IMG/VR virus record: IMGVR_UViG_2703718819_000006
Direction: 5' to 3' (one strand)
Length of the DNA stretch: 64,000 bases
Origin: a virus
Taxonomy: Duplodnaviria > Heunggongvirae > Uroviricota > Caudoviricetes
The notes beneath the pieces were generated by a model. That model worked only from the letters and a program-made list of their open reading frames with translations, did not search any database and had not been told where the DNA came from. Positions 11,295-59,579 of this stretch are shown here, in pieces; position 1 is the stretch's first letter, and each line of letters opens with the position of its first letter. The position numbers and the translations under genes were made by a program.

Positions 11295-11926
11295 TATTCG
11301 TCCTCCCCTTCACTTCCATCATCTGTCGCATCAAATTCGCTTAGAGCTTCTTCTTCCAACGTCTCAAGCAATTCGTCATCGATGATTTCAGGCTCGTCGT
11401 CTTCCTGACGTAATTTCGCCACCTGGGAAGGCGTAAGCTCACCAAATACCAGGTTCGGAATTTCTTCCTCGTCATTTTCCGCATGATCCATGCCCAATGC
11501 TTTGGACGAAACTTCAAAGCATTTTGCAAGGGTATTACTGGCTCTCTGTAAGCTCTTGAGAGAATCCTCAATCGCCCCTAAAGGCTTACCCTCACGTTTG
11601 GCCGTAGTGACTTCGACCATCACCATCTGCCCCAACGCATACGCCCAGCCGTCATAACGTGTACGACGTTCTTCTATCTTTTCCGCACGGGCTTTAGCGC
11701 GAAGCTCTGCGTCAGATTTAAGAGACTCACGAACCATCTTCCCAACAGAGTCCGCGCCTTTCTCTAATCCTCGCTTTTTGAAATGTCTGGAGAGTGTTTC
11801 ACGACGAATGCCGTACTCTTCCTCCAGCTTTGAGAGTGTATATTCGCCTGACGTCCATTTGGCTTCAGCTTCGGCCCACTCCGCTGGTGTCAGGCGAGTT
11901 TTTACCTCGTCTTTTTCGACCGTCAT
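11294..11926 (-). CDS. terminase small subunit (HTH N-terminus, acidic C-terminus)
   Basis: 210 aa; N-terminal HTH-like segment (TLSKLEEEYGIRRETLSRHFKKRG), strongly acidic tail; stop overlaps TerL start. Confidence 0.5.
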   Translation of the reverse strand: MTVEKDEVKTRLTPAEWAEAEAKWTSGEYTLSKLEEEYGIRRETLSRHFKKRGLEKGADSVGKMVRESLKSDAELRAKARAEKIEERRTRYDGWAYALGQMVMVEVTTAKREGKPLGAIEDSLKSLQRASNTLAKCFEVSSKALGMDHAENDEEEIPNLVFGELTPSQVAKLRQEDDEPEIIDDELLETLEEEALSEFDATDDGSEGEDE

Positions 11927-12022
11927 AGATCCCTCTAAAACACACAGAGCGCGTCCATGCGCTCTAAAACAACTTGTTTACTGCATCTGCTAACCAACTT
12001 GTTTTCTGGGGTGTTTAATTAG

Positions 12023-13297: not shown

Positions 13298-13548
13298 CTG
13301 CGCTCGATATTGGCATTGATGAAATCCAGGCGAAGAGACTCCATCGCCCCTACCATGACATACGGGCGCCCGCCGTTATGCCAGCAATCAAGAACACTGC
13401 CGTCGTTGTTGATCATCAACAGCGCCAGGCTCTGGCTTTTTCCTTCTCTGGCGTGCTGAAGTGCTTCTTCCAGCAGGCGGATGACTTCCACGTTGTTGTT
13501 ATCAGTCTCTTTCGATGGCTTCAGCTCTACGATCTTCAAATCAGGCAT
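13294..13548 (-). CDS. hypothetical small protein in ParB/ATPase operon
   Basis: 84 aa; overlapping start/stop with both neighbours. Confidence 0.35.
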   Translation of the reverse strand: MPDLKIVELKPSKETDNNNVEVIRLLEEALQHAREGKSQSLALLMINNDGSVLDCWHNGGRPYVMVGAMESLRLDFINANIERR

Positions 13549-14179
13549 ATTCCACCTTCACGCGTTCTTTGTAGTGCTTGGTGATCTGCATATCCGGGCG
13601 CAGCGCGTTCTTCAGGTCTTCGTGAGTCGTCGCCACCATTACCGTCGCACCAACCTTTCGAGCGGCACGCTGGAGGTTAGATGCCACAACCTGAGCGGTT
13701 ACACGGTCTAGAACAGCACCGAACTCGTCAGCAGCCCACACTTTAGCGCCTGACTCAATCAGTTTGGCAATCTTGAGACGATATTTCTGGCCGTCTGACA
13801 TTTCAGAAGGCTTGCGAACAAACAGATATGCATCGTTCAGACCAGCCATAGATAACAACCCAAGCGCATCACTGGTCGTTTTGCCCAACTGATCGATGAC
13901 GTTAACCTCATTATCGAAGGTAAAATCATCGATGGAGGCTACAGACAGCCCTTCATCCTTCATCTGTCGTTGCAACTCGCGCAGCACAACGGATTTGCCG
14001 GAACCGGATTGGCCGGTGATGTACACCACATCGCCCTGCTTCACTTCCAGCTCCAGATTGTCGTAAAGCGTCCACTCTTTTTCGTCCAGGCCAAGCCCGA
14101 ACGACTCAGCGATTTCCAACGTGCGCGTGGTTTTATTTACGCGTGTCTGAAACGATACGTTGATGATGTATTTGCTCAT
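13541..14179 (-). CDS. minimal ABC-type ATPase (nucleotide-binding-domain-like)
   Basis: 212 aa; Walker A GQSGSGKS, signature-like SDGQKYRL, Walker B VWAADEF, H-loop-like TTHED. Confidence 0.6.
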   Translation of the reverse strand: MSKYIINVSFQTRVNKTTRTLEIAESFGLGLDEKEWTLYDNLELEVKQGDVVYITGQSGSGKSVVLRELQRQMKDEGLSVASIDDFTFDNEVNVIDQLGKTTSDALGLLSMAGLNDAYLFVRKPSEMSDGQKYRLKIAKLIESGAKVWAADEFGAVLDRVTAQVVASNLQRAARKVGATVMVATTHEDLKNALRPDMQITKHYKERVKVEYA

Positions 14180-14877
14180 GCAGCCATCTCCCCGGAAGAG
14201 ATCTTCTCCGCATATGCCACAAATGCGTCTACCCCGCTTTCTCCCGTCATTTCTTCCATGTGGGCAAGCAAATCACCAACAACAATGGCAGAGCCAGCAG
14301 GAAGCGTTTTAAAGCCCAATACGTCGACAACACGTACTTCTTCCGCTGCAACTTCACGACTGATCTCGGTGTGTTCATCCTTCTGTCGTTTAGTTTCTTC
14401 GCCAAGATCGATAACTAGCGAGTCGGTGTCCATTTCTTCTGTCATACTGCCAACGAGAACATTCAACTCACGCTCTTCGAAGCCGAAAACCTCGATATCG
14501 TCCAGAACAAGCGACTCAAGCTCTTTCTGTAGCTTAATTGCATCGTAATCAATGCTGGCAAGTCGGTTATCTTCAAGGCGCTTTGCACGTACCTCGTCAT
14601 CACTCAGATCATCACGAACAATAACCGGTACGCGCTCAAGTCCAGCAAAAATTGCAGCCTCACGGCGGCCGTGGCCAGTAATAATTACGTCGTTCTTATC
14701 GACCGTAATTGGCTGGTCAAATCCGCGCTTTTTAATGGCTGCGGCCAGATCTCTGATCTGCTGTTCATCATGCTTTTTGGCATTCATCTCATAGGGAATA
14801 AGATCTGCCGGGTCGCGATATACGATTTCAAACTTTTTGGTCATTACATACGCTCCTTGTAGTAGTCGACCAGCCAC
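14176..14877 (-). CDS. ParB-like (ParB/Srx fold) domain protein
   Basis: 233 aa; N-terminal ParB-type box (IITGHGRREAA) with acidic C-terminus. Confidence 0.55.
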   Translation of the reverse strand: MAGRLLQGAYVMTKKFEIVYRDPADLIPYEMNAKKHDEQQIRDLAAAIKKRGFDQPITVDKNDVIITGHGRREAAIFAGLERVPVIVRDDLSDDEVRAKRLEDNRLASIDYDAIKLQKELESLVLDDIEVFGFEERELNVLVGSMTEEMDTDSLVIDLGEETKRQKDEHTEISREVAAEEVRVVDVLGFKTLPAGSAIVVGDLLAHMEEMTGESGVDAFVAYAEKISSGEMAA

Positions 14878-15542
14878 ACCAGAGCCTCACCAGCGTTCTC
14901 CATTTCATTACCGGTGTTAATAGCCTGCTCTTTGATGATGTTTTTTATGGTTTCTGCAACACGATCTGACGCATCGAAAGTTACTTTGAAGCGCATGGTC
15001 TGATGTTCCGCACCCACACGTTCGGTTTTCTCTCGTTTGTCGGTATCGACAGGCTCATCACTACCACGAGACAACGCCTCCAGTGCTTCAAGGTCGATTG
15101 CCGCCTCTTTTGCTAAAACCATCGAGATTTCGTCGTCATACGGAGCGATTTCAGACAGTTGATAGTCAAGTTCTGACTGAATTTCTTCAATGAAGCGTTG
15201 CAATGCGATTTGGTCGTCTTCACCGTATCGCTCGTTGTCCACCAGTGACATCTGTTTAGCTACGACATCGCTAATTTTGCCCACAGAAAGCACCGGAACC
15301 GTTGAAATTCCTTGCTCAATAGCAGCACGCCAGCGATGTTCACCTCCGAGAATTTCAAAAAATCCACCTTCAAGTTCACGAGCCAAAATTGGCTTAAAAA
15401 AGCCCAATTTTTCGATAGAACCTTTCAGTTTTTCAAAATTCTGCGCACCAACCGAATTGGTGTTCCAGGTATTCGGGCGAAGGTTGGCAACATCAACCTG
15501 CAAAATCGTGATTTTTACATCCATTTTATTGCTACAATCCAC
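14844..15542 (-). CDS. ParB-like (ParB/Srx fold) domain protein
   Basis: 232 aa; N-terminal ParB-type box (EILGGEHRWRAAIEQG). Confidence 0.55.
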   Translation of the reverse strand: MDCSNKMDVKITILQVDVANLRPNTWNTNSVGAQNFEKLKGSIEKLGFFKPILARELEGGFFEILGGEHRWRAAIEQGISTVPVLSVGKISDVVAKQMSLVDNERYGEDDQIALQRFIEEIQSELDYQLSEIAPYDDEISMVLAKEAAIDLEALEALSRGSDEPVDTDKREKTERVGAEHQTMRFKVTFDASDRVAETIKNIIKEQAINTGNEMENAGEALVWLVDYYKERM

Positions 15543-15606: not shown

Positions 15607-17166
15607 ATGACTGTTCGGATTGTATCTAACGCAGTAAATGCGCTTATTTCTGGCGCAGATGACAAGGTAAAGCAACTGGTGCAGCAAATGTTGAGCTACG
15701 AAGTCGAGACTGGCGACTGGAAGGGCACAAGCACGATGTTCAACTGGAGTAAAAACTCGTTCCCTGCTGGCTTTGCCAAGCCTGTAGCGGCGAACTTGAA
15801 CAAGGCGGGCATCAAATGTGTTCATATCCGCAAAGACAAAGCCCCGGCGCTTGGTAAACCAAATCCGGCGGTTAACCCATTCCCATACAATCCTGATTAT
15901 GCGTATCAGGATCAGACTGTGGAAACACTGGTTCGAGAGGGAATGATGATTGCGCAGATCGCTACTGGTGGCGGGAAATCTAACGTTGCCTGCAAAGCAG
16001 CTGCACGTATCGGTCGAATGACATTATTTTTAACAACCCGCTCTGTTCTGATGTTTCAAATGGCCGAAAACTTCCAGAGATCCATCGACTACCGCGCCGA
16101 AAATGGCGAACCGTGGTTAAAGGGCCAAAAGGTTGGAGTCATTGGCTCGGGTGAGTTCCAGGTATCACGACATATCAACGTCGCTACAGTTCAAACTCTG
16201 GCAAGTTTCCTTGAAGAACCACCACGCGATGCAACACCAGATAAAAAGAGCTACCACCTCAAACGTCGGGAGTTGGTGAAACGCTTCCTTTCAAGTGTGT
16301 CTCTGCTTATTCTGGAAGAAGCGCATGAGTCTTCAGGCTCTAATTTCTATGACATTGCCAGATTATGTGTGAACGCAGACTATCGTCTGGCGCTTACAGC
16401 CACGCCGTTCATGAAGGATTCGACGGAAGCCAACATGCGCCTGATGGCGGTGGCCGGGCGAATTGAAATTAAAGTCACAGAAAAGTACCTGATTGATCGA
16501 GGCATTCTGGCAAAGCCGTACTTCCTTTATCATAAAGTTGCCTACAAGCCAGACGAGGCCAGAATCAAGGCCGAACTTGCCAACAAACACCTCAATTTTA
16601 GAGTTGGTATGAGCACCGCCTACCAAAAGGCTTATCAGTTGGGGATCGTGTATAATTTGGGACGTAACGAGGCCATAGTGCGCGAGGCATTGCTTTATAA
16701 GCAACATTCACTCAACTGCATGACTCTGGTTCGTCTTAAACGCCACGGGCAAATCCTGATGGAGATGATGAAGGAGTCAGGTCTTAAAGTTGATTTCATC
16801 TATGGGGAATCTAACCAGACGACAAGGCAAGCAAAGCTGAATAGTTTAGCGTCTGGTGAAATAGATGTTTTAATAGGCTCGACTATTCTGGATGTTGGTG
16901 TTGATGTGCCAAGCGTTGGTGCGGTCATTCTTGCTGGTGGTGGGAAAGCAGAAGTTGAAATGAGACAGCGTGTCGGTCGTGGCTTACGAGCCAAAAAAAA
17001 TCAGGCAAACGTGTGTTTTATCACTGATTTCATTGACATTAGCAACAAATACCTGTTGTCTCACTCTTATGAGCGAAAACACATCATCGACACCACACCT
17101 GGCTTTGCAGAAGGTGTATTGCCTATTGATGGAGCATTCGATTTTGGAGTTCTGAAACGAGATTAG
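15607..17166 (+). CDS. superfamily-2 (DEAD/DEAH-type) helicase
   Basis: 519 aa; motif I ATGGGKS, motif II LILEEAHE, motif III LTATP, motif VI VGRGLR; good SD (AGGAAAGAGG) upstream. Confidence 0.75.
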   Translation: MTVRIVSNAVNALISGADDKVKQLVQQMLSYEVETGDWKGTSTMFNWSKNSFPAGFAKPVAANLNKAGIKCVHIRKDKAPALGKPNPAVNPFPYNPDYAYQDQTVETLVREGMMIAQIATGGGKSNVACKAAARIGRMTLFLTTRSVLMFQMAENFQRSIDYRAENGEPWLKGQKVGVIGSGEFQVSRHINVATVQTLASFLEEPPRDATPDKKSYHLKRRELVKRFLSSVSLLILEEAHESSGSNFYDIARLCVNADYRLALTATPFMKDSTEANMRLMAVAGRIEIKVTEKYLIDRGILAKPYFLYHKVAYKPDEARIKAELANKHLNFRVGMSTAYQKAYQLGIVYNLGRNEAIVREALLYKQHSLNCMTLVRLKRHGQILMEMMKESGLKVDFIYGESNQTTRQAKLNSLASGEIDVLIGSTILDVGVDVPSVGAVILAGGGKAEVEMRQRVGRGLRAKKNQANVCFITDFIDISNKYLLSHSYERKHIIDTTPGFAEGVLPIDGAFDFGVLKRD

Positions 17167-17942: not shown

Positions 17943-18467
17943 ATGACAACCAAAGATATTACCTACGGTATCCAAGCTGAACTCTGGCCGCGAGATTACA
18001 CTAACGTTGAAAAACTACTGATGTTCTGGCGCAGAGAACAAATTCCTGTAAGGGTCACTCTCGAAGATGGCCAGGCGTTTTGCATGTACGTTTATGGCCT
18101 CATGCCATCTCGTAACAAAGTTGACCTTTGCCCAGCCCCTTTTGACAAAGAAAATCGCATAAGGCTCCCACTTGAACGCATTAGTACAATTGAATCAGGT
18201 GTGGTTGACAGTATCGCTCACGATTTCAAAGGTCGACTAACAGTTCACCCTGATTATGTCGATAATCGGCCATCACGCCGCGATTTTTTTGCAATTTGCA
18301 ACCAAGCCTACAAAGCAAACAAATCTATAAGGGTGTACATGGCGGATGGCCGTGAAATTGAGGGGGTGTCAGCAGGCGCAGATGCTTGTCAGGTTACACT
18401 ACGTGTCGAGAACGGTAGAAAAATAGTTGTTTTGTTCGATTGGGTTGAACGAATTTTGCCTTTTTGA
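17943..18467 (+). CDS. hypothetical protein (start at MTTKD, downstream of ORF-track start)
   Basis: ORF-track start 17865 overlaps previous gene; ATG at 17943 follows its stop. Confidence 0.4.
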   Translation: MTTKDITYGIQAELWPRDYTNVEKLLMFWRREQIPVRVTLEDGQAFCMYVYGLMPSRNKVDLCPAPFDKENRIRLPLERISTIESGVVDSIAHDFKGRLTVHPDYVDNRPSRRDFFAICNQAYKANKSIRVYMADGREIEGVSAGADACQVTLRVENGRKIVVLFDWVERILPF

Positions 18468-19063: not shown

Positions 19064-19714
19064 ATGGCTAACATTATCATTTCTAAAAAATCCATCGTTG
19101 AAGCTGCTTCCATTGTATCCGATGAACTGCGCGAAAAAGCAGATCTGGCAACTCAAACATATAATGAACATTATAAAAATGGTACGCACACTAAAGCAGA
19201 CAAAGCAAATATGCAAGCTGCGACCACTAAACTTGCTTACTTCATCAACAACGTTGTAAACGCTGTTGAAGACGAAAAATTATGCTCTGTTTTCTACTAT
19301 GCAATCAAAGCAAGCAAACAAGCGCCAGAAGTATTTTTCCGTGATGCAATGACTAATAGTTATTCACTGGAAAAACTGGTTTATCTGGTTAAATCCATTA
19401 AAGCTGGTAAATGCGTTTATTCCGTCGCTGATATGTCTGGATCTCGTGTATTCGCTTTAATCGATATGATTAACGACGAGATCGACACGTTCACTAATGG
19501 CGCTGTTTTCGATTTAATGAATGAAGCTAAAAAAGCGTGCGAAATTAAATTGGACGCTGGCTATACTCAAGCCAACCAGTTGATCAATCTTTGCGAACGT
19601 CTTGGACTTGTTGAAAAAGTCAAAGGAGCTGGGAGCGCGAAAGCTGGCACTCAGCAATATCGCTTTATCAAGAATGATTTCTACAATTATTTAGCTGATG
19701 CTTTTAAAGCGTAA
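19064..19714 (+). CDS. hypothetical protein, AT-rich accessory gene
   Basis: 216 aa; preceded by AT-rich promoter-like gap and SD AAGGAAAAA; followed by hairpin. Confidence 0.5.
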   Translation: MANIIISKKSIVEAASIVSDELREKADLATQTYNEHYKNGTHTKADKANMQAATTKLAYFINNVVNAVEDEKLCSVFYYAIKASKQAPEVFFRDAMTNSYSLEKLVYLVKSIKAGKCVYSVADMSGSRVFALIDMINDEIDTFTNGAVFDLMNEAKKACEIKLDAGYTQANQLINLCERLGLVEKVKGAGSAKAGTQQYRFIKNDFYNYLADAFKA

Positions 19715-19986: not shown

Positions 19987-20217
19987 ATGTTTGTTCTTAT
20001 CGCTGACGTTAACGTCCACAATGAATATTATGTTAATCGCATCGCTGGGATCGCTGGTTACGCTGGGCGCGCAGTCGAGCTTATAGATGAAACGACGCGC
20101 AAAATTGACTTATTGAGCGACCAGGAGCGAAAAAAAGCAGACGTGAACGACGCTGATATTTTTTTAATGTTAAAAGCGTTTGTAGAAATGGGATTTAAAA
20201 TCAGTTTACACAAATAA
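19987..20217 (+). CDS. hypothetical small protein
   Basis: 76 aa; SD AAGGAG upstream; strong terminator immediately downstream. Confidence 0.4.
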   Translation: MFVLIADVNVHNEYYVNRIAGIAGYAGRAVELIDETTRKIDLLSDQERKKADVNDADIFLMLKAFVEMGFKISLHK

Positions 20218-20221
20218 AATC

Positions 20222-20248
20222 GAGCGCCCACTATGGGCGCTTTTTTCG
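20222..20248 (+). terminator. rho-independent terminator AGCGCCCACTATGGGCGCT + TTTTTT
   Basis: Hairpin plus T-run seen in sequence; sister hairpin AGCGCCCACAGTGGGCGCT at 19726-19747. Confidence 0.6.
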
Positions 20249-20699
20249 TTTCCAATACTCCCACCATAACGCGCCAATGATGGCGCGTTTTTATTGTCTT
20301 TAACTCACTCCAACAACATAAAAATAAGCGCCAAAATAACGCCATAGACGCGCTTTTACATCCTTACCAGTACATACCCATTACTTAACACATTAACGCG
20401 CTTAAAACGCGTTATATTGCGCTATAGAGTATGGTTAATCATTGGCTTTTAGTCTTGCCATGTGATCCGCGTTAATTTGTCGGTGCGGATCGGCATTTTG
20501 TTTTGTTCTGTATCCGCTCGCGTATTATGTGCGCGTAATTTTTCACATAATCACACCACTTAATCACGTATGTGATTATGCTACGAAAGAAATCTGGATG
20601 TCTCAGGTGACGAAAGTCATCATAATTTTCCCCGCTCACCTGTCCGACAACCGCTGGTTGGATTCCACCAGCTTCCCGATGTTTTTTCTACATAAAGGC

Positions 20700-20825
20700 G
20701 AATGCAGCCGTTTCCCGAAAAAATCCTGGCCGTTTCCCGTCGGCTCATGAATACGTTCCTCGCCGTTTCTGAAATTTCCCTGCGGCAGCTGGTGGCTATA
20801 GAGAAAGGGCCGTTTCTGGCCCTCT
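20700..20825. repeat. array of GCCGTTTC(C/T) direct repeats (at least 4 units)
   Basis: Seen in sequence; second array at 23835-23965. Confidence 0.6.
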
Positions 20826-20831
20826 TCTCAG

Positions 20832-21314
20832 TTACACGCCATCAAGGATGTGGATGCGGTTGCTTGCGTATACATTCAGCATAAAGTTAGCGCAAAACAG
20901 TTTCCATGTATCAACGCCAGCGGCATACGTAATGTTTTTGCATTTTATTGCATTGTTGGCGATCCGCATCCCCTGTGATACTGCTTCATCGTCGGAAAAT
21001 TTGAACGACGATTGAGTTTTAATCCAGACAGAAATCTGCGTAGCGAACTCAATCAGCTTGGACTGGCAGAATCGCCCGGAGCGCACCGGAAAGACGAACG
21101 TTCCGAATCCAGAATTTACCACATACGCTTTCTCAAATACCCGCGAGTAACGACGATTGCCAATGATGTCGCGTGCAATAATGCATTTTTCTTGTGCTGA
21201 CAGTTCTACCGTCTCATTGTCGCGCCATGCACCAAGTACTCGTTTTTCAATGTCAGAGAACGTTACAGCGATATTGCCATGTGCGGGTGCGTTTACAGTA
21301 GCGATAAAATTCAT
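20832..21314 (-). CDS. hypothetical protein
   Basis: 160 aa ORF with family-1 motif just upstream. Confidence 0.45.
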   Translation of the reverse strand: MNFIATVNAPAHGNIAVTFSDIEKRVLGAWRDNETVELSAQEKCIIARDIIGNRRYSRVFEKAYVVNSGFGTFVFPVRSGRFCQSKLIEFATQISVWIKTQSSFKFSDDEAVSQGMRIANNAIKCKNITYAAGVDTWKLFCANFMLNVYASNRIHILDGV

Positions 21315-21335
21315 GATTAATTCCTTATCGTAAAT

Positions 21336-21350
21336 AACAAATTGTTTTCT
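21336..21350. promoter_or_regulatory. family-1 motif AACAAATTGTTTTCT
   Basis: About 20 bp upstream of start at 21314. Confidence 0.5.
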
Positions 21351-21399
21351 TGTTGGTGTTAATTATCGTTGTACGAATAAGGCGTCAAAGTGGAAAGTT

Positions 21400-21485
21400 G
21401 CGGTAGCCGGACGGGAACAGGTGGGTTTGTCGGTTGCCTGGAGGTAAGAGGTTGGTGTTATTAGCCTGAGGGAAACAGGATGGTC
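21400..21485. repeat. ~30-bp direct repeats CGGTAGCC(G/T)G..(A)AGAGGTTGG (3 units)
   Basis: Seen in sequence; second cluster 24548-24645. Confidence 0.5.
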
Positions 21486-21518
21486 ATTTAAGGCCACCAG
21501 CATTGGTGGCCTTAATAA

Positions 21519-21662
21519 TTATCGCCCGATTACGCTAAGGATCTTTTCCTCAACTGATTTGTTGTTGCGACTAAACTGCCTTGCGTATCTGATGACAGAA
21601 GAGGCGTTTTGCTTTCTGACCATCTCGGCTCTTTCCTTCAGGCGTTTCTTGAAATCGCCCAT
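21519..21662 (-). CDS. possible small basic protein (47 aa, MGDFKKRLKERAEM...)
   Basis: Own translation; ATG 3 nt after upstream gene stop; below ORF-track size cutoff. Confidence 0.2.
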   Translation of the reverse strand: MGDFKKRLKERAEMVRKQNASSVIRYARQFSRNNKSVEEKILSVIGR

Positions 21663-21664
21663 AT

Positions 21665-22081
21665 TTACCACCAGGCGCAGAAGGTCAGTCTGTTATTGTC
21701 AAAGTCGTGGTTCTTAATCAGATCTTCCACAAGCTCTTTCAACTGCCCCACATCATGCCAGTAACCTTCATCGTACTCCTGACTGCCGAAGAAAAAACCT
21801 TCCCGGGTAGGCAAGTACTCTTCGCAATTACTTTCGTTTATGTGCATCAAATGAGCCTTCAGAAAACAAATGTCATTCATCGTTAATTCTAAAAGCTCAC
21901 AATTTTCGACTTCACCTACGTTGCGCTCCATCCACCCAACGAGCGCATTGAACTTACGGAAGTAAGCAACCCGCTTTCTGGATGCCTCGTTATTCAGATC
22001 GTTTTTAGGCTGCGTCTCGATATAGATATCAAGTCCCATGATGGTTTCCTTATTAAGTTGCTTCAGTGAAATCATTTTCAC
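21665..22081 (-). CDS. hypothetical protein
   Basis: 138 aa; family-1 motif upstream. Confidence 0.45.
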   Translation of the reverse strand: MKMISLKQLNKETIMGLDIYIETQPKNDLNNEASRKRVAYFRKFNALVGWMERNVGEVENCELLELTMNDICFLKAHLMHINESNCEEYLPTREGFFFGSQEYDEGYWHDVGQLKELVEDLIKNHDFDNNRLTFCAWW

Positions 22082-22095
22082 AAACCAGATAAGGC

Positions 22096-22110
22096 AGAAA
22101 ACAAATTGTT
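22096..22110. promoter_or_regulatory. family-1 motif AGAAAACAAATTGTT
   Basis: Immediately upstream of start at 22081. Confidence 0.5.
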
Positions 22111-22156
22111 ATCGGGCATAAGAAAATGGCGCGGTTTACGCGCCATTTAAAGAGGA

Positions 22157-22552
22157 TTAAGCGAATACGCTTTCAGGAATTAAGGTGTCAGCAGGAATGC
22201 CGGAGGTAATCCGCAGGCCGTACTGGCCAATCCAGGTAGTGTTGGTATTCAGGCTGGAGGCGAATACGGTGTTAACCATATTCATCATGGTTTCAAACAC
22301 CTCTTCATCAACCTGGCGGAAGTAGTTCTCGATTTTCAGCAGCAGCGGGTCAGTTGCATCGAAAATAGACTGGTATTGAGTCGCGTACTCGCCGCCGGAG
22401 GCCTCACCTTTACGCACGATCGTACTGGCCTGGACTTCGGCGCCAGTTTCGGTGTTGTACGTAACAACGGTGATTTTTGCCACATTCTTACCTTCGGCGG
22501 TTTCAGAGGCATAGTAAACATCAACTGTCAGTTTTTCGCGTTTAACGGTCAT
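22157..22552 (-). CDS. hypothetical protein (start at MTVKRE with SD GGAG)
   Basis: ORF-track start 22618 would include family-2 palindrome and terminator; internal ATG at 22552 has proper SD. Confidence 0.45.
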   Translation of the reverse strand: MTVKREKLTVDVYYASETAEGKNVAKITVVTYNTETGAEVQASTIVRKGEASGGEYATQYQSIFDATDPLLLKIENYFRQVDEEVFETMMNMVNTVFASSLNTNTTWIGQYGLRITSGIPADTLIPESVFA

Positions 22553-22595
22553 TTCACTCTCCGTAGTGTTTTGGTTATTTTTATATTCTATGATC

Positions 22596-22611
22596 GTAAG
22601 TATGTACTTAC
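22596..22611. promoter_or_regulatory. family-2 palindrome GTAAGTATGTACTTAC
   Basis: Upstream of start at 22552. Confidence 0.4.
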
Positions 22612-22642
22612 AATACAAAAAAGCCCCGTAAGGATGGCGGGG
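22612..22642 (-). terminator. hairpin GCCCCGCCATCCTTACGGGGC + T-run on minus strand
   Basis: Seen in sequence downstream of 22679 stop. Confidence 0.55.
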
Positions 22643-22678
22643 CTGTCGTACGGTCGACTAATTACCACTTGCACATTA

Positions 22679-23020
22679 TCAGGCTATTGCCATCACTGAT
22701 GCTCTCTGAATCTCTTGCTGGGCCACGCGGTTAACTTCCATCAAAGCCAGTTCGAGCTGATGTTCCGGCCACATTCTTTGAAATGCCACCCAGCCTTTTC
22801 CACGCTGGCGACGAACATTCATTACATAACGAGTAAAGGTGTTTTTATCGAAAGACACCGCTGTTTCACGGAACAGACGAATAGAGGTTCCATTGGCAAC
22901 GATGTCCAGCAAAGTTAATTGAGCAACCAGCGCAGGCTTCTCTTTTCTCTTCTGGTCTTTGTCCAGACCAAGAACCAATGATTTTTTCATCACAACTCCG
23001 TAAACAACTTGTTTTCTCAA
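22679..23020 (-). CDS. hypothetical protein
   Basis: 113 aa; family-1 motif upstream. Confidence 0.45.
   Translation of the reverse strand: MRKQVVYGVVMKKSLVLGLDKDQKRKEKPALVAQLTLLDIVANGTSIRLFRETAVSFDKNTFTRYVMNVRRQRGKGWVAFQRMWPEHQLELALMEVNRVAQQEIQRASVMAIA
23002..23017. promoter_or_regulatory. family-1 motif AAACAACTTGTTTTCT
   Basis: Overlaps/abuts start at 23020 region. Confidence 0.5.
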
Positions 23021-23143
23021 TGGCGTAAATAATACCAGTAAGAAAACGGCTACAAAGCATATTGATCAGGTGCATGAGCTATATGCAGGTTCTTCACTGC
23101 GGCTATAGAGAAATTAAGCCAGCAATGCTGGCTTTGGTTGTGA

Positions 23144-23491
23144 TTACGCGAATACCTCAAGAAACTCCTGAACGTCCCAATGCTGGACGAGGTGAAGATA
23201 GACCTTAGAAATCACGTCATTTTCGCTATCGCATGTGAAGTAGTACTTCTGGCTGCGGTTGTATGTGTCCACACAAAATTCGCTCATATCCATAAAGTCA
23301 GCATCTTCACCCAGGTCGCTGATCATCAAAGCAGGTGCGTCATCACGAGTCATCAGTTCCAGCACCCATCTTGAATTAATCAGAGTGGAAGACCAACCTT
23401 CTAACTCATAAAACTGATCAAACTCTTTTTGAGTTAATTTCTTGATTTGGTTGATGTCGATATTTGCAAACATAAAGCAATCCTTAAACAA
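23144..23491 (-). CDS. hypothetical acidic protein
   Basis: 115 aa; family-1 motif upstream. Confidence 0.45.
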   Translation of the reverse strand: MFKDCFMFANIDINQIKKLTQKEFDQFYELEGWSSTLINSRWVLELMTRDDAPALMISDLGEDADFMDMSEFCVDTYNRSQKYYFTCDSENDVISKVYLHLVQHWDVQEFLEVFA

Positions 23492-23501
23492 CTTGTTTTC
23501 T
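23486..23501. promoter_or_regulatory. family-1 motif AAACAACTTGTTTTCT
   Basis: Abuts start at 23491. Confidence 0.5.
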
Positions 23502-23834
23502 TGATGGTGTTATTATCGCAACAACGCACAGGCGAAAAAGGATTTTATTCCGGTGAATGTGGTTTTGGCAGTGAGTTTTCAGGTTCAGTACCGAGTACAC
23601 TTTTTACATTATTCTGATTTAGTGGCCGAAGGTGGCTGGTGGGCAGAATAATCATCTCCCCGAAAACCTACTGAAATCGATTGTGACCCGTTGGCTGTCT
23701 GGCACAATTACGCTGTAGTTGGGCATTCAGAGGGAATCCAACGGTAAGTAAGTTCGCCTGCACGTGAGCGCCTCTCTTCTTCCCGCACATTACAGGTGGG
23801 TAGCCGCAACTCTCCCTCTCGCTATACCGGTACG

Positions 23835-23965
23835 CCGCCGTTCCTGAACCGGCATCGAGCCTTTTCCCGAAATCCACACAGGCAACTCGACCGTTTCCCT
23901 GAAAACCTCCAGCCGTTCCTCGAAGGCAACCCAGCCGTTTCTGTAGCGGGATGCAGCCTTTTCCC
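23835..23965. repeat. array of GCC(G/T)TT(T)CC(C)TG direct repeats (6 units, ~22-25 bp spacing)
   Basis: Seen in sequence. Confidence 0.6.
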
Positions 23966-24229
23966 TGTATGGACCGAAGGCTGACCGTAGGGGTGTTACG
24001 GGGGATAAAATCAGGAGTTGAATAAATACGAAAAAGGAGGCGACACCCCTCCTTCCCTCCCCACTTATACATACCTGTCTTGTTCGCTATACATGTTGTG
24101 TTTTCTTCGTGTTTTATCTGTTTCAACCTCTCTATAGGCGTTAATGCTCACTCCTTCCAGAACGTTCTATACGGCGACTATTTCTGTTGGTGAATTGGGT
24201 GTGTTGTTTTCTCTGTCGGTGTATGTGGT

Positions 24230-24660
24230 TTCGTTCGTTTTGCGGTGGTTCTTCTATGGGGTGTTCTCGTCGTTTTGGTGATTGTTCTTCTCCGTGTATG
24301 GAGTAATGGCAGGTGGGCGATTCCTTTCGTTGTTGTGTTTGAGTTGTTTGTCTGGAGTGTGTGGAAGGCTTTTGTAGTTATTCGTGTATTGGGTAATGGC
24401 GTTTCCCGTGATTGTTATGTTTCGTGTCTTTTGGGGTTGAGAGAATCCTTGCGGTTACAGGCTTCGTTGGGTTTTCAGTGATTCTGGTGTTTCTTCGCTG
24501 TTTGGGGAATGGCGTGTCGTGGGTATCGCGCGTATGAATGTTTTCGGATTGCCTGTGAAAGTTAGGTTGGTTGTCCGGTAGCCTGGGGAGAAGAGGTGGG
24601 TCTTTTCGGTAGCCTGCCATAAAGAGGTTGGTTGTTTTTGGGAATGGCATTTGTGTTATT
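24230..24660. repeat. GT-rich strand-skewed region with ~100-bp periodic GG(G)TAATGGC(G) units
   Basis: Four units near 24290, 24385, 24497, 24637; plus strand almost devoid of A/C runs. Confidence 0.5.
24548..24645. repeat. ~30-bp direct repeats CGGTAGCCTG..AAGAGGTTGGTTGT (3 units)
   Basis: Seen in sequence; matches 21400-21485. Confidence 0.5.
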
Positions 24661-25028
24661 TAGTTGTTTTGTTATGCCTGAAAATAAGTTGTTTATATGG
24701 TTGTGTAACGCAACGGGAGCGATTTTGAGCGTGTGTTTTTGTTGGTAGTGTGTTGGGTCGTCTGTGGTGAAAATTGGACGCTGTGGCGCTGTCTGCTGCG
24801 TAGAGTTACGGGTATAAGAAGTGATGTGTGAAAACGTCAATTTTTTAGACCAAATCGGGTGAAAGCGTTGACGTTTCGTTGATCTGTTATTTAGTTGTTT
24901 TCTTATTTGTATAAACAACCATAACCTATTGATATTTAAGGGTATGATTGCAGGTATGGAAGTGGGGTAGTGGCGATCAACGGATTCTTATAGAAAAGAA
25001 TCAAATTGTGACCGCCATTATCAATGTT

Positions 25029-25763
25029 TTACATAGTTTTGTTTAGCAGAGAGAGAATTTCATCACTAATTTCACTCGCCTGTTTGATAGCCAATGCAGT
25101 TACCTCTTCTATGGTTGGTGACTGTTGATGCTCATGTTTGGTTTCAGTTATGACAATGTGTTCTTCACCTGAATTTGCGCATAGTGCCGCATTGACGATA
25201 AGGTTTGAGTAAGAATTTAGCAGAGCACTGTTGATGAACGCTTTCACGGTATTACTGTCTGCACCAAATACATCTTTTCTGACCGCTTCAGCCTCACAGC
25301 GAACCCCTGCAGCAACATCGTGAAGAACATGTATGGCCTTGGGGCTTGTTTGTTCACAGTACTCAATCATTATTGTCGAATTGTTCTGTTCAACAAACGA
25401 TCTGATGCCTGACGATTCACCCATAGCATCGAAGGCAGCGTGACCCGCACTGGTAGAGATATCTTCATAGAGTTCTTCATCGCTATCTTTTTCTTCAGGT
25501 GTCGAGGTGTCTTCATCGTCGTAATAGATATTGCCTTTAATCAGTGTTTTGGACACTTGATATAAACAATAAGAAACGAGATTTAAGCATTGGATTTTAG
25601 CTGTATTGTCCTTTGTCGCCTCGCTCTTCAGTTCTTTCGCTTCTTCAGTAAGGCTGTTGATAAGACTTTGTATTTTTTCCAACGCGTTAGGCGCACACTC
25701 CGCGTTGTCCATAAAGAATTTATAACCAGTCCCAGGGATTTCTAAACTTTTCAACTTTTTCAT
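25029..25763 (-). CDS. hypothetical protein
   Basis: 244 aa ORF, acidic stretches. Confidence 0.45.
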   Translation of the reverse strand: MKKLKSLEIPGTGYKFFMDNAECAPNALEKIQSLINSLTEEAKELKSEATKDNTAKIQCLNLVSYCLYQVSKTLIKGNIYYDDEDTSTPEEKDSDEELYEDISTSAGHAAFDAMGESSGIRSFVEQNNSTIMIEYCEQTSPKAIHVLHDVAAGVRCEAEAVRKDVFGADSNTVKAFINSALLNSYSNLIVNAALCANSGEEHIVITETKHEHQQSPTIEEVTALAIKQASEISDEILSLLNKTM

Positions 25764-26269: not shown

Positions 26270-28303
26270 TTACTTAACTTGGTGGCCTGGTTTAGCACCA
26301 GCATCCGGGCTTAACAGGAAGATATCTTTTCCGCCAGGGCCAGCAGCCATCACCATGCCTTCGGAGATACCGAAGCGCATTTTACGCGGTGCCAGGTTAG
26401 CCACCATAATGGTGTGACGACCAATCAGTGCCTGTGGATCTGGATAAGCGGAACGAATGCCTGAGAAGACATTACGTTTTTCTCCGCCGAGATCCAGTGT
26501 CAGGCGCAGCAGTTTGTCAGAACCTTCGACAAACTCCGCGTTTTCAATCAGTGCCACGCGCAGGTCAACTTTGGCGAAGTCGTCAAAGGTGATGGTTTCC
26601 TGAATCGGATCGTCTGCCAGCGGGCCAGTTACCGGTGCGGCAGCGGCTTTGACTTCTTCTTTAGACGCTTCCACCAGTGCTTCAACCTGCTTCATATCGA
26701 TACGGTTATACAGAGCTTTGAACGGATTCACTTTATGTCCCAACAGCGGTTGCTGGATACCATCCCAGGTCAGTTCCGTATTGAGGAATGCCTCTGCACG
26801 TTCAGTCAGTTTTGGCAGTACCGGTTTCAGGTACGTCATCAGCACGCGGAACAGGTTAATGCCCATAGAGCAAATCGCCTGCAGATCGGCATCGCGACCT
26901 TCCTGCTTCGCCACCACCCACGGAGCCTGTTCATCGACATAGCGGTTAGCCAGGTCAGCCAGTGCCATGATTTCACGGATAGCTTTACCAAATTCGCGGC
27001 TTTCCCATGCTTCGCCAATCACTTCAGCGGCATCAGTAAAGGTTTTGTACAGTTGCGGGTCAGCCAGTTCGCTTGCCAGCACGCCGTCAAAACGCTTGTT
27101 GATAAAGCCTGCATTACGGGAGGCCAGGTTAACCACTTTGTTCACGATATCGGCATTCACGCGCTGAACGAAATCCTCCAGGTTGAGATCGATATCATCA
27201 ATGCGCGAAGAGAGTTTCGCAGTGTAGTAGTAACGCAGGCTGTCGGCGTCAAAATGATTCAGCCAGGTGCTGGCTTTAATAAAGGTGCCGCGAGACTTGG
27301 ACATCTTCGCACCGTTCACCGTCACATAGCCATGAACAAACAGGTTGGTCGGCTTGCGGAAGTTGCTGCCTTCTAGCATGGCAGGCCAGAACAGGCTGTG
27401 GAAGTAAACGATATCTTTGCCGATGAAGTGGTACAGCTCGGCGGTAGAGTCTTTCTTCCAGTATTCGTCGAAGCTGGTGGTGTCGCCGCGTTTGTCGCAC
27501 AGATTCTTGAAGGAACCCATGTAGCCAATCGGCGCGTCCAGCCAGACGTAGAAATATTTGCCCGGCGCGTTCGGAATTTCAAAACCGAAGTAAGGCGCAT
27601 CGCGGGAGATATCCCACTGTTGCAGGCCGGATTCAAACCATTCCTGCATTTTGTTTGCCACCTGCTCCTGCAACGCGCCGCTGCGGGTCCATGCCTGCAA
27701 CATTTCGCTGAAAGAAGGCAGATCAAAGAAGAAGTGTTCAGAATCACGCATTACCGGCGTAGCGCCAGAAACCACCGATTTCGGTTCAATCAGTTCAGTC
27801 GGGCTGTATGTCGCGCCGCAGACTTCACAGTTATCGCCGTATTGATCTGGCGCTTTACATTTCGGGCAGGTGCCTTTTACAAAACGGTCCGGCAGGAACA
27901 TGCCTTTTTCCGGGTCGTACAGCTGAGAGATGGTGCGGTTTTTAATAAAACCGTTCTCTTTCAGGCGAGTATAGATAAGCTCAGACAACTGACGGTTCTC
28001 TTCGCTGTGCGTCGAGTGATAGTTGTCATAGCTGATGTTAAAGCCTGCGAAATCAGTCTGATGTTCCTGACTCATTTCGCCAATCATCTGTTCCGGTGTG
28101 ATACCAAGCTGCTGTGCTTTCAGCATGATTGGCGTACCGTGGGCATCGTCGGCACAGATGAAATTAACCTCGTGGCCGCGCATTCGCTGGTAACGAACCC
28201 AGACATCAGCCTGGATGTGCTCCAGCATATGGCCGAGGTGGATTGAGCCGTTAGCGTACGGCAGCGCGCACGTCACCAGAATTTTCTTCGCGACTTGGGT
28301 CAT
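26270..28303 (-). CDS. metG: methionine--tRNA ligase
   Basis: Translation from ATG at 28303 ([48 protein letters not shown]...) has class-I HIGH motif and KMSKS (GAKMSKSRG) and matches my recollection of enterobacterial MetG essentially residue for residue; the 43-aa extension in the ORF track is spurious. Confidence 0.95.
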
Positions 28304-28460
28304 AGTAGGCATTACTTCTTTGTAGTGAAAAGGGGCTTGATAGTAACAAAATGGCCTTATGTCTGCCATGTGATAACAGCATTTCTCATAAATGATTAAA
28401 TGTCGTAGCTGGAGTACACTACAAGGCGACAATTGCGCAAATTAAAATAAAGGAGACGGG

Positions 28461-29561
28461 ATGAGCGAGTCCAAATCGCCGGATGCCCTGAGAGCAATGG
28501 TAGCCGGTACGCTGGCTAATTTTCAGCACCCAACCCTGAAACACAACCTGACTACGCTTAAAGCGTTACACCATGTTGCGTTGATGGATGACACACTGCA
28601 TGTCGAACTAATCATGCCTTTCGTGTGGAATAAGCCTTTTGAAGACCTGAAAGAGCAATGTAGTGGTGATCTGCTCCGTATCACTGGCGCAAAGGCTATT
28701 GACTGGAAGCTGTCGTACAACATTGCCACGCTTAAGCGCGTCAAAAACCAACCAGGCATTAATGGCGTTAAGAACATTATCGCCGTCAGCTCAGGCAAGG
28801 GCGGCGTGGGTAAATCCTCCACGGCGGTAAACCTGGCACTGGCGTTGGCTGCTGAAGGTGCGAAAGTTGGTATTTTGGATGCCGATATCTATGGTCCATC
28901 AATTCCAACCATGCTGGGCGCGGAAAACCAACGTCCAACCTCACCTGATGGTACTCACATGGCACCTATCATGTCTCATGGCCTGGCAACCAACTCTATT
29001 GGTTATCTGGTCACCGACGACAATGCAATGGTGTGGCGTGGACCGATGGCAAGCAAGGCGCTGATGCAGATGTTGCAGGAAACTCTATGGCCTGATCTGG
29101 ACTATCTTGTTCTCGATATGCCGCCGGGCACTGGTGATATTCAGTTGACGCTGGCGCAGAACATTCCTGTAACTGGTGCTGTTGTGGTAACTACGCCGCA
29201 AGACATCGCGCTGATCGATGCGAAGAAAGGCATTGTGATGTTCGAAAAAGTCGAAGTGCCGGTACTGGGTATCGTCGAAAACATGAGTGTGCATATTTGC
29301 AGTAACTGCGGTCATCACGAGCCAATTTTTGGCACCGGTGGCGCAGAGAAACTGGCCGAGAAATACAACACGCAGTTGTTAGGCCAAATGCCACTTCATA
29401 TCTCACTTCGTGAAGATCTGGATAACGGAACACCAACCGTTATTAGTCGTCCAGATAGTGAATTTACGGCTATTTATCGTGACCTCGCAGATCGCGTTGC
29501 TGCCCAAATGTATTGGCAAGGTGAAGTAATACCTGGCGAAATCGCATTCCGCGCAGTGTGA
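28461..29561 (+). CDS. apbC: Fe-S cluster carrier ATPase ApbC/Mrp
   Basis: 366 aa; deviant Walker A SGKGGVGKS, CxxC (CSNCGH); divergent from metG as in enterobacterial chromosomes. Confidence 0.9.
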   Translation: MSESKSPDALRAMVAGTLANFQHPTLKHNLTTLKALHHVALMDDTLHVELIMPFVWNKPFEDLKEQCSGDLLRITGAKAIDWKLSYNIATLKRVKNQPGINGVKNIIAVSSGKGGVGKSSTAVNLALALAAEGAKVGILDADIYGPSIPTMLGAENQRPTSPDGTHMAPIMSHGLATNSIGYLVTDDNAMVWRGPMASKALMQMLQETLWPDLDYLVLDMPPGTGDIQLTLAQNIPVTGAVVVTTPQDIALIDAKKGIVMFEKVEVPVLGIVENMSVHICSNCGHHEPIFGTGGAEKLAEKYNTQLLGQMPLHISLREDLDNGTPTVISRPDSEFTAIYRDLADRVAAQMYWQGEVIPGEIAFRAV

Positions 29562-57779: not shown

Positions 57780-57978
57780 AATCGTTTTTTCAGTAGTTAT
57801 TGGCCGATGCTACGATAACTCATTAGGCATACCTTAATCTGCATTTGCCTGTTTACTTATCCCAGTTATCCACTGGATAGATCCAAATAAGAGATCCCAA
57901 GTAAGATCAAATAGAAGATCCAAAGAGATCCCCGATCGCCTCTAGCCGTTGCGGTTACTGGTCTGAAAGGGTGTTGCC

Positions 57979-58481: not shown

Positions 58482-58521
58482 AAAGGCCACCAAAGCCGTC
58501 GAATAACAAGAGACATTTGGA

Positions 58522-59577: not shown

Positions 59578-59579
59578 CC

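What the first reader, a model, noticed from the sequence alone, without database searches (positions are those of the whole stretch)
21400..24645. Second direct-repeat family CGGTAGCCTG..AAGAGGTTGG in two clusters (21400-21485 and 24548-24645)
Three ~30-bp units per cluster, again in non-coding DNA beside the GCCGTTTCC arrays, so the two repeat families are interleaved and duplicated. That suggests a composite cis-acting locus rather than random low-complexity sequence.
Basis: seen in the sequence. Interest (0 to 1): 0.45.

Follow-up and report, generated by a model that had tools for sequence, protein, structure and literature searches.

The report
Conserved repeat arrays in SSU5-like phage-plasmid
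The two clusters of ~30-bp repeats are real, conserved, non-coding, probably protein-binding site arrays belonging to an undescribed two-module control region of a widespread enterobacterial phage-plasmid, but their binding protein and exact role are still unknown.

Summary
Six same-strand units (consensus TCGGTAGCCTGG, 5-6 variable bases, AAGAGGTKGGT-TTTT) lie in two clusters, 21397-21484 and 24543-24632, spaced 28-31 bp; chance expects 0.13.

The window is an SSU5/pHCM2/pLF82-type phage-plasmid, 98% identical to E. coli phage Cyrano. Both clusters keep their position and orientation in relatives from seven genera at about 70% DNA identity. The boxes stay fixed while the inner spacer drifts, and arrays gain or lose whole units.

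Each cluster lies about 0.7 kb from a 22-bp-phased GCCGTTTCC array, giving two tandem modules. Module 1 encloses a 160-aa orphan gene, and cluster A sits about 50-130 bp upstream of its predicted promoter. Module 2 is a roughly 1.2-kb conserved stretch with no codon periodicity. It is extremely G+T-rich on the + strand, carries a third repeat family, and its minus strand is silent in lysogens.

Yersinia pMT1 lacks module 2, so that module is not needed for plasmid upkeep.

My best reading is DNA-level, phased binding sites that assemble a phage-cycle nucleoprotein complex. I favour a lytic replication origin or organiser; transcription control alone is nearly as likely. No binding protein was identified and no publication describing the repeats was found.

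The parts
21397..21484 (+). fam2 cluster A: three ~30-bp units. Box 1 is GGTAGCC(T/G)G and box 2 is A(G/C)AGG(T/A)KGGT. The cluster lies about -49 to -131 from the predicted start of the ORF160 transcript.
24543..24632 (+). fam2 cluster B: three units. The first is degenerate; the second and third are near-consensus.
20706..20817 (+). fam1 array 1: GCCGTTTCC-type units at 20707, 20729, 20762 and 20809. The last lies inside the hairpin that follows the ORF160 stop codon.
23836..23968 (+). fam1 array 2: six units at 23836, 23859, 23890, 23912, 23934 and 23956, spaced 23, 31, 22, 22 and 22 bp.
20832..21314 (-). ORF160, the gene enclosed by module 1. It is an orphan family (phrog_1641) found only in SSU5-like elements.
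21336..21388 (-). Predicted ORF160 promoter (TTGACG-N17-TAATTA) with the palindromic operator AAACAAnTTGTT between the -10 element and the Shine-Dalgarno sequence.
   Evidence: sequence reading; conservation; motif scan
21488..21515 (.). Conserved 10-bp-stem hairpin (AAGGCCACCA/TGGTGGCCTT) bounding cluster A. It contains a Chi octamer and has no T-run.
24060..24920 (.). Conserved non-coding G+T-rich segment of module 2. Base composition of 24100-24900 on the + strand is G 31%, T 40%, C 13%, A 15%.
24278..24311 (+). fam3 unit (TTCTTCTCCGTGTATGGAGTAATGGC). Further units lie at 24372-24402, 24486-24515 and 24633-24649. Other lineages carry 5-7 copies.
24031..24057 (-). Terminator-like hairpin plus T-run between the G+T-rich segment and fam1 array 2. 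It is strong in this lineage and weaker in others.
   Evidence: alignment
24812..24852 (-). Candidate sigma-70 promoter TTGACG-N17-TTATAC. The hexamers are conserved and the spacer varies. The strand it would drive reads at the floor in lysogens.
   Evidence: alignment; CYRAN_103 at floor
24682..24695 (.). Copy of the palindromic operator AAA(A/T)AAnTTGTTT, 50 bp to the right of cluster B.
19064..19714 (+). ORF216, a highly conserved neighbour with a predicted C-terminal winged-helix domain. It is a candidate binding protein only.

Best explanation
The fam2 units are sites on double-stranded DNA for a sequence-specific protein or protein pair that has not been identified.

Anatomy of a site:
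- Each site has two different conserved boxes, TAGCCTG and GAGGTKGGT. Box centres alternate every ~15 bp, so each box type repeats every 28-31 bp, about three helical turns.
- A T-tract also recurs in phase.
- The most conserved contiguous piece is box 2, T-tract, next box 1.

Proposed mechanism:
- Bound cooperatively, and together with the 22-bp-phased GCCGTTTCC iteron-like arrays ~0.7 kb away, the sites assemble a bent or looped nucleoprotein complex at two tandem modules.
- I favour a phage-cycle (lytic) replication origin or replisome-organiser region. Module 2 (iterons, a modest AT-rich dip, a hairpin, then a long gene-free skewed segment with fam3 and fam2 sites) would be the origin proper. 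Module 1 would be a paralogous auxiliary site that also controls the ORF160 promoter. This resembles P4 ori/crr or SPP1 oriL/oriR.

Shown here: the repeats, their phasing, their conservation, the non-coding status, and that module 2 is dispensable for plasmid maintenance.

Inferred: protein binding, looping and the replication role.
For: - The repeats are far above chance and confined to the two clusters.
- Position and orientation are kept in E. coli, Shigella, Salmonella, Klebsiella, Citrobacter, Enterobacter and Cronobacter elements, and module 1 in Yersinia pMT1. Module 2 matches 839 plasmid records and module 1 matches 769. Of 103 IMG/VR loci carrying the pattern, 101 show similarity to this window.
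- Boxes are conserved while the intra-unit spacer varies.
- Spacing is always 28-31 bp, and arrays gain or lose whole units.
- No coding signal. No RNA structure beyond shuffles on either strand. No Rfam family matches the modules themselves; the only sub-threshold hit lies at 20230-20296.
- The minus strand of module 2 reads at the floor in lysogen RNA-seq although both flanking genes are expressed (the data are strand-specific).
- fam1 arrays have the 22-bp phasing typical of iterons. The same 9-mer at the same phase forms the repeat array inside an O-like gene of ~40-kb lambdoid prophages, which by its lambda-like position is probably their origin.
- A GC dip to 0.38-0.40 follows array 2 at the same place in three lineages.
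- pMT1 lost module 2 in a large deletion yet persists as a plasmid.
- The plasmid replicon (repA with its own, different iterons) lies 34 kb away.
- A neighbouring, very conserved protein has a predicted winged-helix domain.
Against: - No binding protein was identified. ORF160 has no DNA-binding fold match, and the ORF216 winged-helix hits are weak (E 0.1-0.5).
- There are no DnaA boxes.
- The AT-rich dip is shallow and is not the least stable spot in the region.
- The 30-bp period and two-box unit are unusual for iterons.
- The shared 9-mer with lambdoid origins comes without any protein homology and could be coincidence.
- The extreme G+T skew is not explained by this model.
- Cluster A's position upstream of a promoter fits plain transcription control equally well.
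Confidence: 0.33

Rival explanations
1. Transcription control only. The fam2 arrays are upstream binding sites for a phage activator or repressor. With the fam1 arrays they loop or silence the island of small genes, and they have no role in replication.
For: - Cluster A occupies about -49 to -131 of the predicted ORF160 promoter in every lineage.
- T-tracts recur in phase.
- The small genes between and around the modules each carry the same palindromic operator.
- Cluster B lies 50 bp from such an operator and downstream of a conserved promoter-like pair.
- Genes flanking the modules change expression between conditions.
Against: - No promoter-like sequence sits next to cluster B in the place it holds next to cluster A (sequence reading).
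- About 1.2 kb of conserved gene-free DNA with three repeat families is far more than a promoter needs.
- The genes between the modules are dispensable cargo: in some lineages the modules lie only ~0.76 kb apart.
Confidence: 0.27
2. RNA-level element. The minus strand of module 2 is made as a C/A-rich, unstructured, untranslated RNA. This RNA would be a Rho-loading or polarity region or a protein or RNA sponge, and the repeats would be motifs read on RNA.
For: - The minus strand of 24100-24900 has about 31% C and 13% G.
- It folds no better than shuffles, and weakly: -115 kcal/mol for 786 nt.
- A conserved promoter-like site and a terminator-like hairpin bracket it.
- Read counts collapse right after the upstream gene, from about 57 to the floor.
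- An FljA/Hfq-like RNA-binding-type protein is encoded about 6 kb away.
- Whole-unit copy-number change recalls ToxI-like RNA repeats.
Against: - That strand is at the floor in lysogens under all five conditions.
- Cluster A lies upstream of a promoter, behind a hairpin, so it need not be transcribed.
- A variable spacer inside fixed two-box units fits a DNA site better than a pairing or RNA motif.
- Rho loading needs no conserved repeats.
- There is no Rfam match.
Confidence: 0.15
3. Plasmid partition centromere or copy-control (handcuffing) arrays used during lysogeny.
For: - Arrays of direct repeats in two clusters resemble parC, tubC or incA-type sites (own knowledge).
- TubR is among the structural neighbours of the ORF216 winged-helix domain.
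Against: - pMT1 is maintained without module 2.
- The annotated ParA gene lies about 65 kb away in Cyrano.
- RepA has its own, unrelated iterons flanking repA.
Confidence: 0.06
4. Terminase recognition (pac or cos-type) site with repeated small-terminase binding boxes.
For: Repeated boxes in two groups and intrinsic bending are features of lambda cosB, P1 pac and SPP1 pac (own knowledge).
Against: The small-terminase gene is at 11294-11926, about 9.5-13 kb away. Known sites lie in or next to that gene.
Confidence: 0.04
5. Decaying remnant of an old duplication with no present function.
For: Outside the repeats, the interiors of the two modules show no detectable similarity.
Against: - Boxes are 87-90% invariant across genera in DNA that is otherwise 41% invariant.
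- Phasing is preserved.
- The modules co-occur in essentially all relatives except pMT1.
Confidence: 0.03

Closest known systems
Iteron arrays of phage and plasmid origins (lambda ori inside gene O; P1/F-type incC-repA-incA)
   Same: - Same-orientation direct repeats in helical phase.
- fam1 has the classic 22-bp period.
- An identical 9-mer at the same phase forms the repeat array inside an O-like gene in lambdoid prophages.
- The arrays flank a small gene on both sides, as in P1 repA.
   Different: - fam2 has a 28-31-bp period and two unlike boxes.
- There is no recognisable initiator, no DnaA boxes and only a shallow AT-rich dip.
- The element's own RepA replicon lies elsewhere, with different iterons.
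Two-site origins with distant repeat clusters (P4 ori + crr; SPP1 oriL/oriR with two box types; R6K gamma with alpha/beta). Recalled from the literature, not tested here.
   Same: Two clusters of the same binding sites lie a few kb apart, with more than one box type per cluster.
   Different: No homologue of P4 alpha or SPP1 G38P was looked for beyond Pfam and PHROG scans of the neighbouring genes. The function here is unproven.
Centromere repeat arrays (R1 parC, pBtoxis tubC, TP228 parH)
   Same: Clusters of short direct repeats that may be bound by a small winged-helix or ribbon-helix-helix protein.
   Different: The clusters are not next to a partition operon, and module 2 is dispensable for plasmid maintenance in pMT1.
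ToxI-type antitoxin RNA repeats (type III toxin-antitoxin systems)
   Same: About 30-nt tandem units lie upstream of a small gene, and the unit number varies.
   Different: A promoter, not a terminator, separates the repeats from the gene. ORF160 matches no Pfam family or solved fold, so nothing marks it as ToxN-like. Cluster B has no downstream gene. No transcript was seen in lysogens.

Membership tests
Iteron-type replication origin | Three or more same-orientation repeats of ~17-22 bp spaced about two helical turns apart | tested here: met
   This holds for fam1 only: six units, four of the five gaps 22-23 bp (one is 31). The fam2 units repeat every 28-31 bp, which is not typical.
Iteron-type replication origin | Adjacent AT-rich unwinding element | tested here: inconclusive
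   A GC dip to 0.38-0.40 follows array 2 at the same place in three lineages, but it is not the least stable segment of the region.
Iteron-type replication origin | DnaA boxes (present in many such origins, not all) | tested here: not met
   No TTATCCACA match with up to 1 mismatch lies between 19.5 and 25.5 kb.
Iteron-type replication origin | Cognate initiator gene at or next to the repeats | tested here: inconclusive
   ORF160 has a confident model but no DNA-binding fold match. ORF216 has weak winged-helix hits. Nothing is homologous to the lambdoid O-like protein.
Iteron-type replication origin | Supports replication of a linked DNA | not testable with these tools
   This needs an origin-trap or marker-frequency experiment.
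Plasmid partition centromere | Lies beside its partition operon | tested here: not met
   The annotated ParA gene is at Cyrano 29.3 kb, and the modules are at about 94-99 kb.
Plasmid partition centromere | Required for stable inheritance | tested here: not met
   55 Yersinia pMT1-type records keep module 1 but none matches module 2; in the one inspected the site holds an IS1541 insertion and a deletion. This argues only for module 2, and it is indirect.
Type III toxin-antitoxin (ToxI/ToxN-like) | Repeats, then a terminator, then an endoribonuclease toxin gene, all in one transcript | tested here: not met
   A promoter and operator lie between cluster A and ORF160. ORF160 has no Pfam or PDB match. 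Cluster B has no downstream gene.
Terminase recognition site (cosB or pac) | Located in or next to the small-terminase gene | tested here: not met
   terS is at 11294-11926.
Rho-utilisation region | Long C-rich, G-poor, unstructured untranslated RNA | tested here: met
   This holds for the minus strand of 24100-24900: about 31% C and 13% G, folding no better than shuffles. Whether it is ever transcribed is unknown; it is at the floor in lysogens.
Known RNA families (Rfam 15) | Covariance-model match | tested here: not met
   Nothing reaches gathering score in the window. The only hit at E<=5 in 20200-25100 lies outside the modules.

The most novel reading that the evidence does not exclude
Module 2, with module 1 as its partner, is a previously unrecognised lytic-mode replication origin of the SSU5/pHCM2/pKpn phage-plasmid family. 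It would be separate from the RepA plasmid origin and built from three phased repeat families: 22-bp iterons, ~30-bp two-box units, and the GTAATGGCG units. These lie on an ~0.8-kb extremely G+T-skewed spacer and would be read by a family-specific protein such as the winged-helix ORF216.
Probability: 0.2. Interest if true: 0.6.

Novelty: new variant of a known kind. Interest (0 to 1): 0.45.

Why it matters
SSU5-like phage-plasmids are common in clinical E. coli, Klebsiella, Salmonella and Enterobacter. They include pHCM2 of S. Typhi and the backbone of the Y. pestis plasmid pMT1, and some carry resistance genes.

It is not known how they switch between low-copy plasmid replication and lytic replication, and I found no description of a lytic origin or of this region.

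A conserved, gene-free, repeat-dense locus that plasmid maintenance does not need is the obvious place to look for that switch. It is directly testable with origin-trap, pull-down and marker-frequency experiments.

If it proves to be only a promoter-control region for orphan genes, it is of local interest.

Tried and rejected
- **Coding sequence in module 2.** No conserved ORF and no codon periodicity. The Cyrano ORFs 103 and 104 are not called by PGAP.
- **Paralogy of the whole modules.** Only the repeat arrays align; the interiors do not.
- **Structured RNA or a known RNA family.** Fold z-scores are -0.13 and +1.38, and no Rfam family matches the modules; the only sub-threshold hit lies at 20230-20296.
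- **ORF160 as the binding protein.** The model is good (pLDDT 88.7), but no PDB fold reaches E<0.5, there is no PDB sequence hit and no Pfam hit.
- **Link to lambdoid O-type initiators through the shared GCCGTTTCC-N13-GCCGTTTCC.** tblastn and profile comparison found no homologue in the window, in about 86 kb of Cyrano, or in ORF216. The O-like protein has no Pfam hit.
- **RepA iterons in the region.** Only 3-mismatch look-alikes are present.
- **T7-type primase sites (GTC, KKGTC) on the G+T-rich strand.** They are not enriched over composition: 11 observed against 13.6 expected.
- **GC-skew inflection as an origin marker.** Skew simply follows gene orientation.
- **Contexts outside SSU5-like elements.** An IMG/VR scan for fam2 found none except two single chance hits. 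My first scan pattern had a wrong spacer and found nothing.
- **Literature.** Searches on SSU5, pHCM2, pMT1 and Cyrano found no description of these repeats. One relevant 2026 preprint could not be opened.
Full report
**What the window is.** The region 20200-25000 is 98% identical to E. coli phage Cyrano (plasmid pLF82 of strain LF82) and to many ~108-kb E. coli plasmids. It is 68-80% identical to Salmonella phage SSU5 and to Klebsiella phage-plasmids. The window is therefore part of an SSU5/pHCM2-type phage-plasmid, lying in reverse orientation to the Cyrano record. Nearly all genes sit on the minus strand. A short block at 15.6-20.2 kb runs the other way, so the finding sits at the end of the long gene array, next to the point where transcription converges.

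**Checking the observation.**
- The repeat finder recovers the family.
- A two-box pattern with up to 3 mismatches hits exactly six sites, three per cluster, all on the + strand. Shuffles expect 0.13.
- No other copy exists in the window or in the scanned parts of Cyrano.
- The first family, GCCGTTTCC (fam1), forms arrays at 20707-20817 (four units) and 23836-23964 (six units, mostly 22 bp apart).
- The order is fam1, fam2, fam1, fam2. The fam1-to-fam2 distance is about 0.7 kb in both modules (695 and 688 bp here) and 703-725 bp in SSU5 and Klebsiella relatives.

**Anatomy of a fam2 unit.**
- Thirty-four distinct units from nine lineages give the logo TCGGTAGCCTGG, 5-6 variable bases, AAGAGGTKGGT, one variable base, TTTT.
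- The two unlike boxes alternate every ~15 bp, and like boxes recur every 28-31 bp.
- In an eight-lineage alignment the stretch box 2, T-tract, next box 1 (24593-24617) is 88% invariant. The intra-unit spacers are 50% invariant and the surrounding non-coding DNA is 41%.
- Cluster B has 2, 3 or 4 units in different relatives, changing by whole, sometimes identical, units.
- A fixed two-box unit with a drifting spacer, helical phasing and whole-unit slippage is what arrays of protein-binding sites on DNA look like. That reading is an inference, because nothing here shows binding.

**The two modules.**
- Outside the repeats, the interiors of the modules are not similar.
- Module 1 holds ORF160 (20832-21314, minus strand). 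It is a real gene with strong codon periodicity and belongs to an orphan family found only in these elements.
- Reading the minus strand, a promoter-like TTGACG-N17-TAATTA (21388 to 21360) is followed by a palindromic operator, a Shine-Dalgarno sequence and the start codon. This layout is conserved.
- Cluster A begins 14 bp upstream of the -35 hexamer and extends to a conserved hairpin at 21488-21515.
- Module 2 has no gene. There is no conserved ORF and no codon periodicity (94/89/98), and almost no annotation in the plasmid records sampled.
- From 24100 to 24900 the + strand is 31% G, 40% T, 13% C and 15% A.
- Module 2 also carries a third same-orientation repeat, fam3 (about 28 bp, ending GTAATGGCG). 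There are four copies here and 5-7 in other lineages, on both sides of cluster B.
- Other features of module 2 are a terminator-like hairpin at 24057 to 24031 on the minus strand, a copy of the palindromic operator at 24682-24695, and a very conserved block at 24826-24910. That block holds an inverted AACGTCAA/TTGACGTT pair and a promoter-like TTGACG-N17-TTATAC on the minus strand.

**Distribution.**
- Module 2 matches 839 plasmid records and module 1 matches 769.
- Counts by genus are nearly identical for the two modules in Escherichia, Enterobacter, Salmonella, Citrobacter and Cronobacter. Klebsiella has extra module-2 matches, some of them short fragments in larger plasmids.
- Yersinia is the exception. 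pMT1 keeps an intact module 1, but an IS1541 insertion and a large deletion have removed module 2 and much of the early region.
- pMT1 is stably inherited, so module 2 is not needed for plasmid replication or segregation.
- In some relatives the modules are only ~0.76 kb apart. The five small genes between them here are therefore cargo.
- An IMG/VR scan for fam2 returned 103 loci. All but two show similarity to this window, and those two carry a single match each.

**Expression.**
- Published strand-specific RNA-seq of the LF82 lysogen gives log2(fpkm+5) of 2.32, the floor, in LB for the minus-strand interval equivalent to 24562-24918.
- That interval reaches at most 4.3 in the other conditions. 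The flanking genes reach 9.2 and 7.8 (PMC9928086 supplementary table).
- Module 2 is thus a silent gap on that strand in lysogens. There are no data for the lytic cycle or, in what I could read, for the other strand.

**RNA and protein tests.**
- Neither strand folds better than shuffles, and no Rfam family matches.
- ORF160 gives a confident model (pLDDT 88.7) with no solved-fold neighbour.
- ORF216 (19064-19714) is about 1 kb from module 1 and is 82-86% identical across genera, where the DNA is about 70% identical. Its model is a helical N-terminal part plus a C-terminal ~90-residue domain.
- ORF216 is a candidate binder, no more.

**A lead from fam1.**
- Scanning IMG/VR for GCCGTTTCC-N13-GCCGTTTCC also hit about 30 loci from contigs of up to ~45 kb that are not SSU5-like.
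- In the one inspected closely (L121), the repeats lie in the middle of a 364-aa gene just downstream of a cI/cro-like pair. This is the lambda gene O / ori arrangement.
- So the same 9-mer at the same phase forms what is probably an origin iteron array elsewhere.
- However, the rest of that iteron differs (it is an ATTCGGC...GCCGAAT palindrome). The O-like protein has no homologue in the window or in the ~86 kb of Cyrano searched and none in ORF216.
- This is a resemblance, possibly a coincidence, and not membership.

**Weighing the explanations.**
- All the data fit DNA-level binding-site arrays. What the complex does is open.
- *For a lytic origin or organiser:* 22-bp iterons, followed at a conserved place by a modest AT-rich dip and a hairpin; 1.2 kb of conserved gene-free DNA with three repeat families; dispensability for plasmid maintenance; silence in lysogens; and the plasmid replicon lying 34 kb away with unrelated iterons flanking repA.
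- *Against it:* no DnaA boxes, a shallow dip, no initiator, and an unusual 30-bp unit.
- *For transcription control alone:* cluster A's promoter-proximal position and the operator-controlled small genes.
- *Against it:* no matching promoter at cluster B, and the sheer size of module 2.
- *An RNA or Rho reading* fits the C-rich, G-poor, unstructured minus strand and the drop in reads after the upstream gene. It does not explain conserved two-box repeats or a cluster that lies upstream of a promoter.
- *Partition and packaging roles* fail on location and on the pMT1 evidence.
- None of these models accounts for the extreme G+T skew. T7-type primase motifs are not enriched.

**Verdict.** The finding is real and biologically meaningful. 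It is a family-specific, conserved, composite non-coding locus. I would class it as a new variant of iteron-like binding-site arrays with unknown binding protein and function. I found no publication that describes it. Interest is moderate. It would rise if the locus proves to be the lytic origin or the switch between plasmid and lytic replication in this clinically common family.

Noticed in passing
window 24278-24311, 24372-24402, 24486-24515, 24633-24649: A third same-orientation repeat family (about 28 bp, TTCTTCTCCGTGTATGGrGTAATGGCG) lies inside the G+T-rich segment. Other lineages have 5-7 copies about 40-50 bp apart, flanking fam2 cluster B.
   Followed up: partly
window 24100-24900: Extreme strand asymmetry in non-coding DNA: the + strand is G 31%, T 40%, C 13%, A 15%, with GC skew up to +0.53 and AT skew down to -0.67. 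No model considered here explains it.
   Followed up: partly
window 21336, 22096, 23003, 23487, 24679, 26123, 26170, 30108, 38925, 39650, 49874, 63687; triple at 11964-12007: The palindrome AAACAAnTTGTTT (within AGAAAACAAnTTGTT) recurs at 14 or more places. Where I read the sequence (ORF160 and the gene at 23144-23473) it sits just upstream of the ribosome-binding site. It is probably the operator of a global phage regulator.
   Followed up: partly
window 57879-60009: This is the plasmid replicon. repA (58522-59577, + strand) is flanked by 21-bp iterons with core CCACTATAGAGAG. Nine lie upstream (57981-58437). About a dozen, in both orientations, lie from the 3' end of repA onward (59376-60009). 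GATC-containing 12-mers lie at 57879-57931. The layout is P1-like (incC-repA-incA).
   Followed up: partly
window 17955-18467 (+): A strong member of the FljA family (repressor of phase-1 flagellin; PF03614, E 2.5e-84), with a weak Hfq-like signal. It is conserved in relatives including pMT1 and may be an RNA-binding regulator.
   Followed up: no
window 26270-28432 (-) and 28461-29561 (+): Host-like methionyl-tRNA synthetase (metG) and apbC/mrp genes are carried by the phage-plasmid, as in Cyrano/pLF82.
   Followed up: no
window 20665, 20788, 21494, 23635: Four Chi octamers (GCTGGTGG) lie within 3 kb, against 15 in the whole 64 kb. One is inside fam1 array 1 and one inside the hairpin bounding cluster A. 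In other lineages the first unit of cluster A also contains Chi.
   Followed up: no
L121 6601-7695 (-), repeats about 7186-7330; also L125, L138, L142 and others: Lambdoid-type prophage contigs of up to ~45 kb carry GCCGTTTCC/GCCGAATCC repeats with a 22-bp period inside an O-like gene (the one inspected, L121, is most similar to a 40-kb Klebsiella phage). This is probably a lambda-type origin. The O-like protein has no Pfam match.
   Followed up: partly
window 19064-19714 (+): ORF216 is 82-86% identical across genera, more conserved than its neighbours. Its model is a helical bundle plus a C-terminal winged-helix-like domain.
   Followed up: partly
window 13541-15542 (-): Two adjacent ParB N-terminal-domain proteins and an ABC-type ATPase lie next to a UvsW-like DEAD/DEAH helicase (15607-17166). 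The block is conserved in pMT1.
   Followed up: no
window about 21500-21700: This copy lacks about 470 bp that Cyrano/pLF82 has between cluster A and the next gene. That leaves a truncated 50-codon ORF at 21519-21671.
   Followed up: no
L014 4502-4836 (Klebsiella 175-kb IncFIB/HI1B plasmid): A ~330-bp fragment holding two fam2 units and the conserved right-hand block of module 2 is embedded in unrelated large Klebsiella plasmids, next to restriction-modification genes. It is probably a recombination remnant.
   Followed up: no
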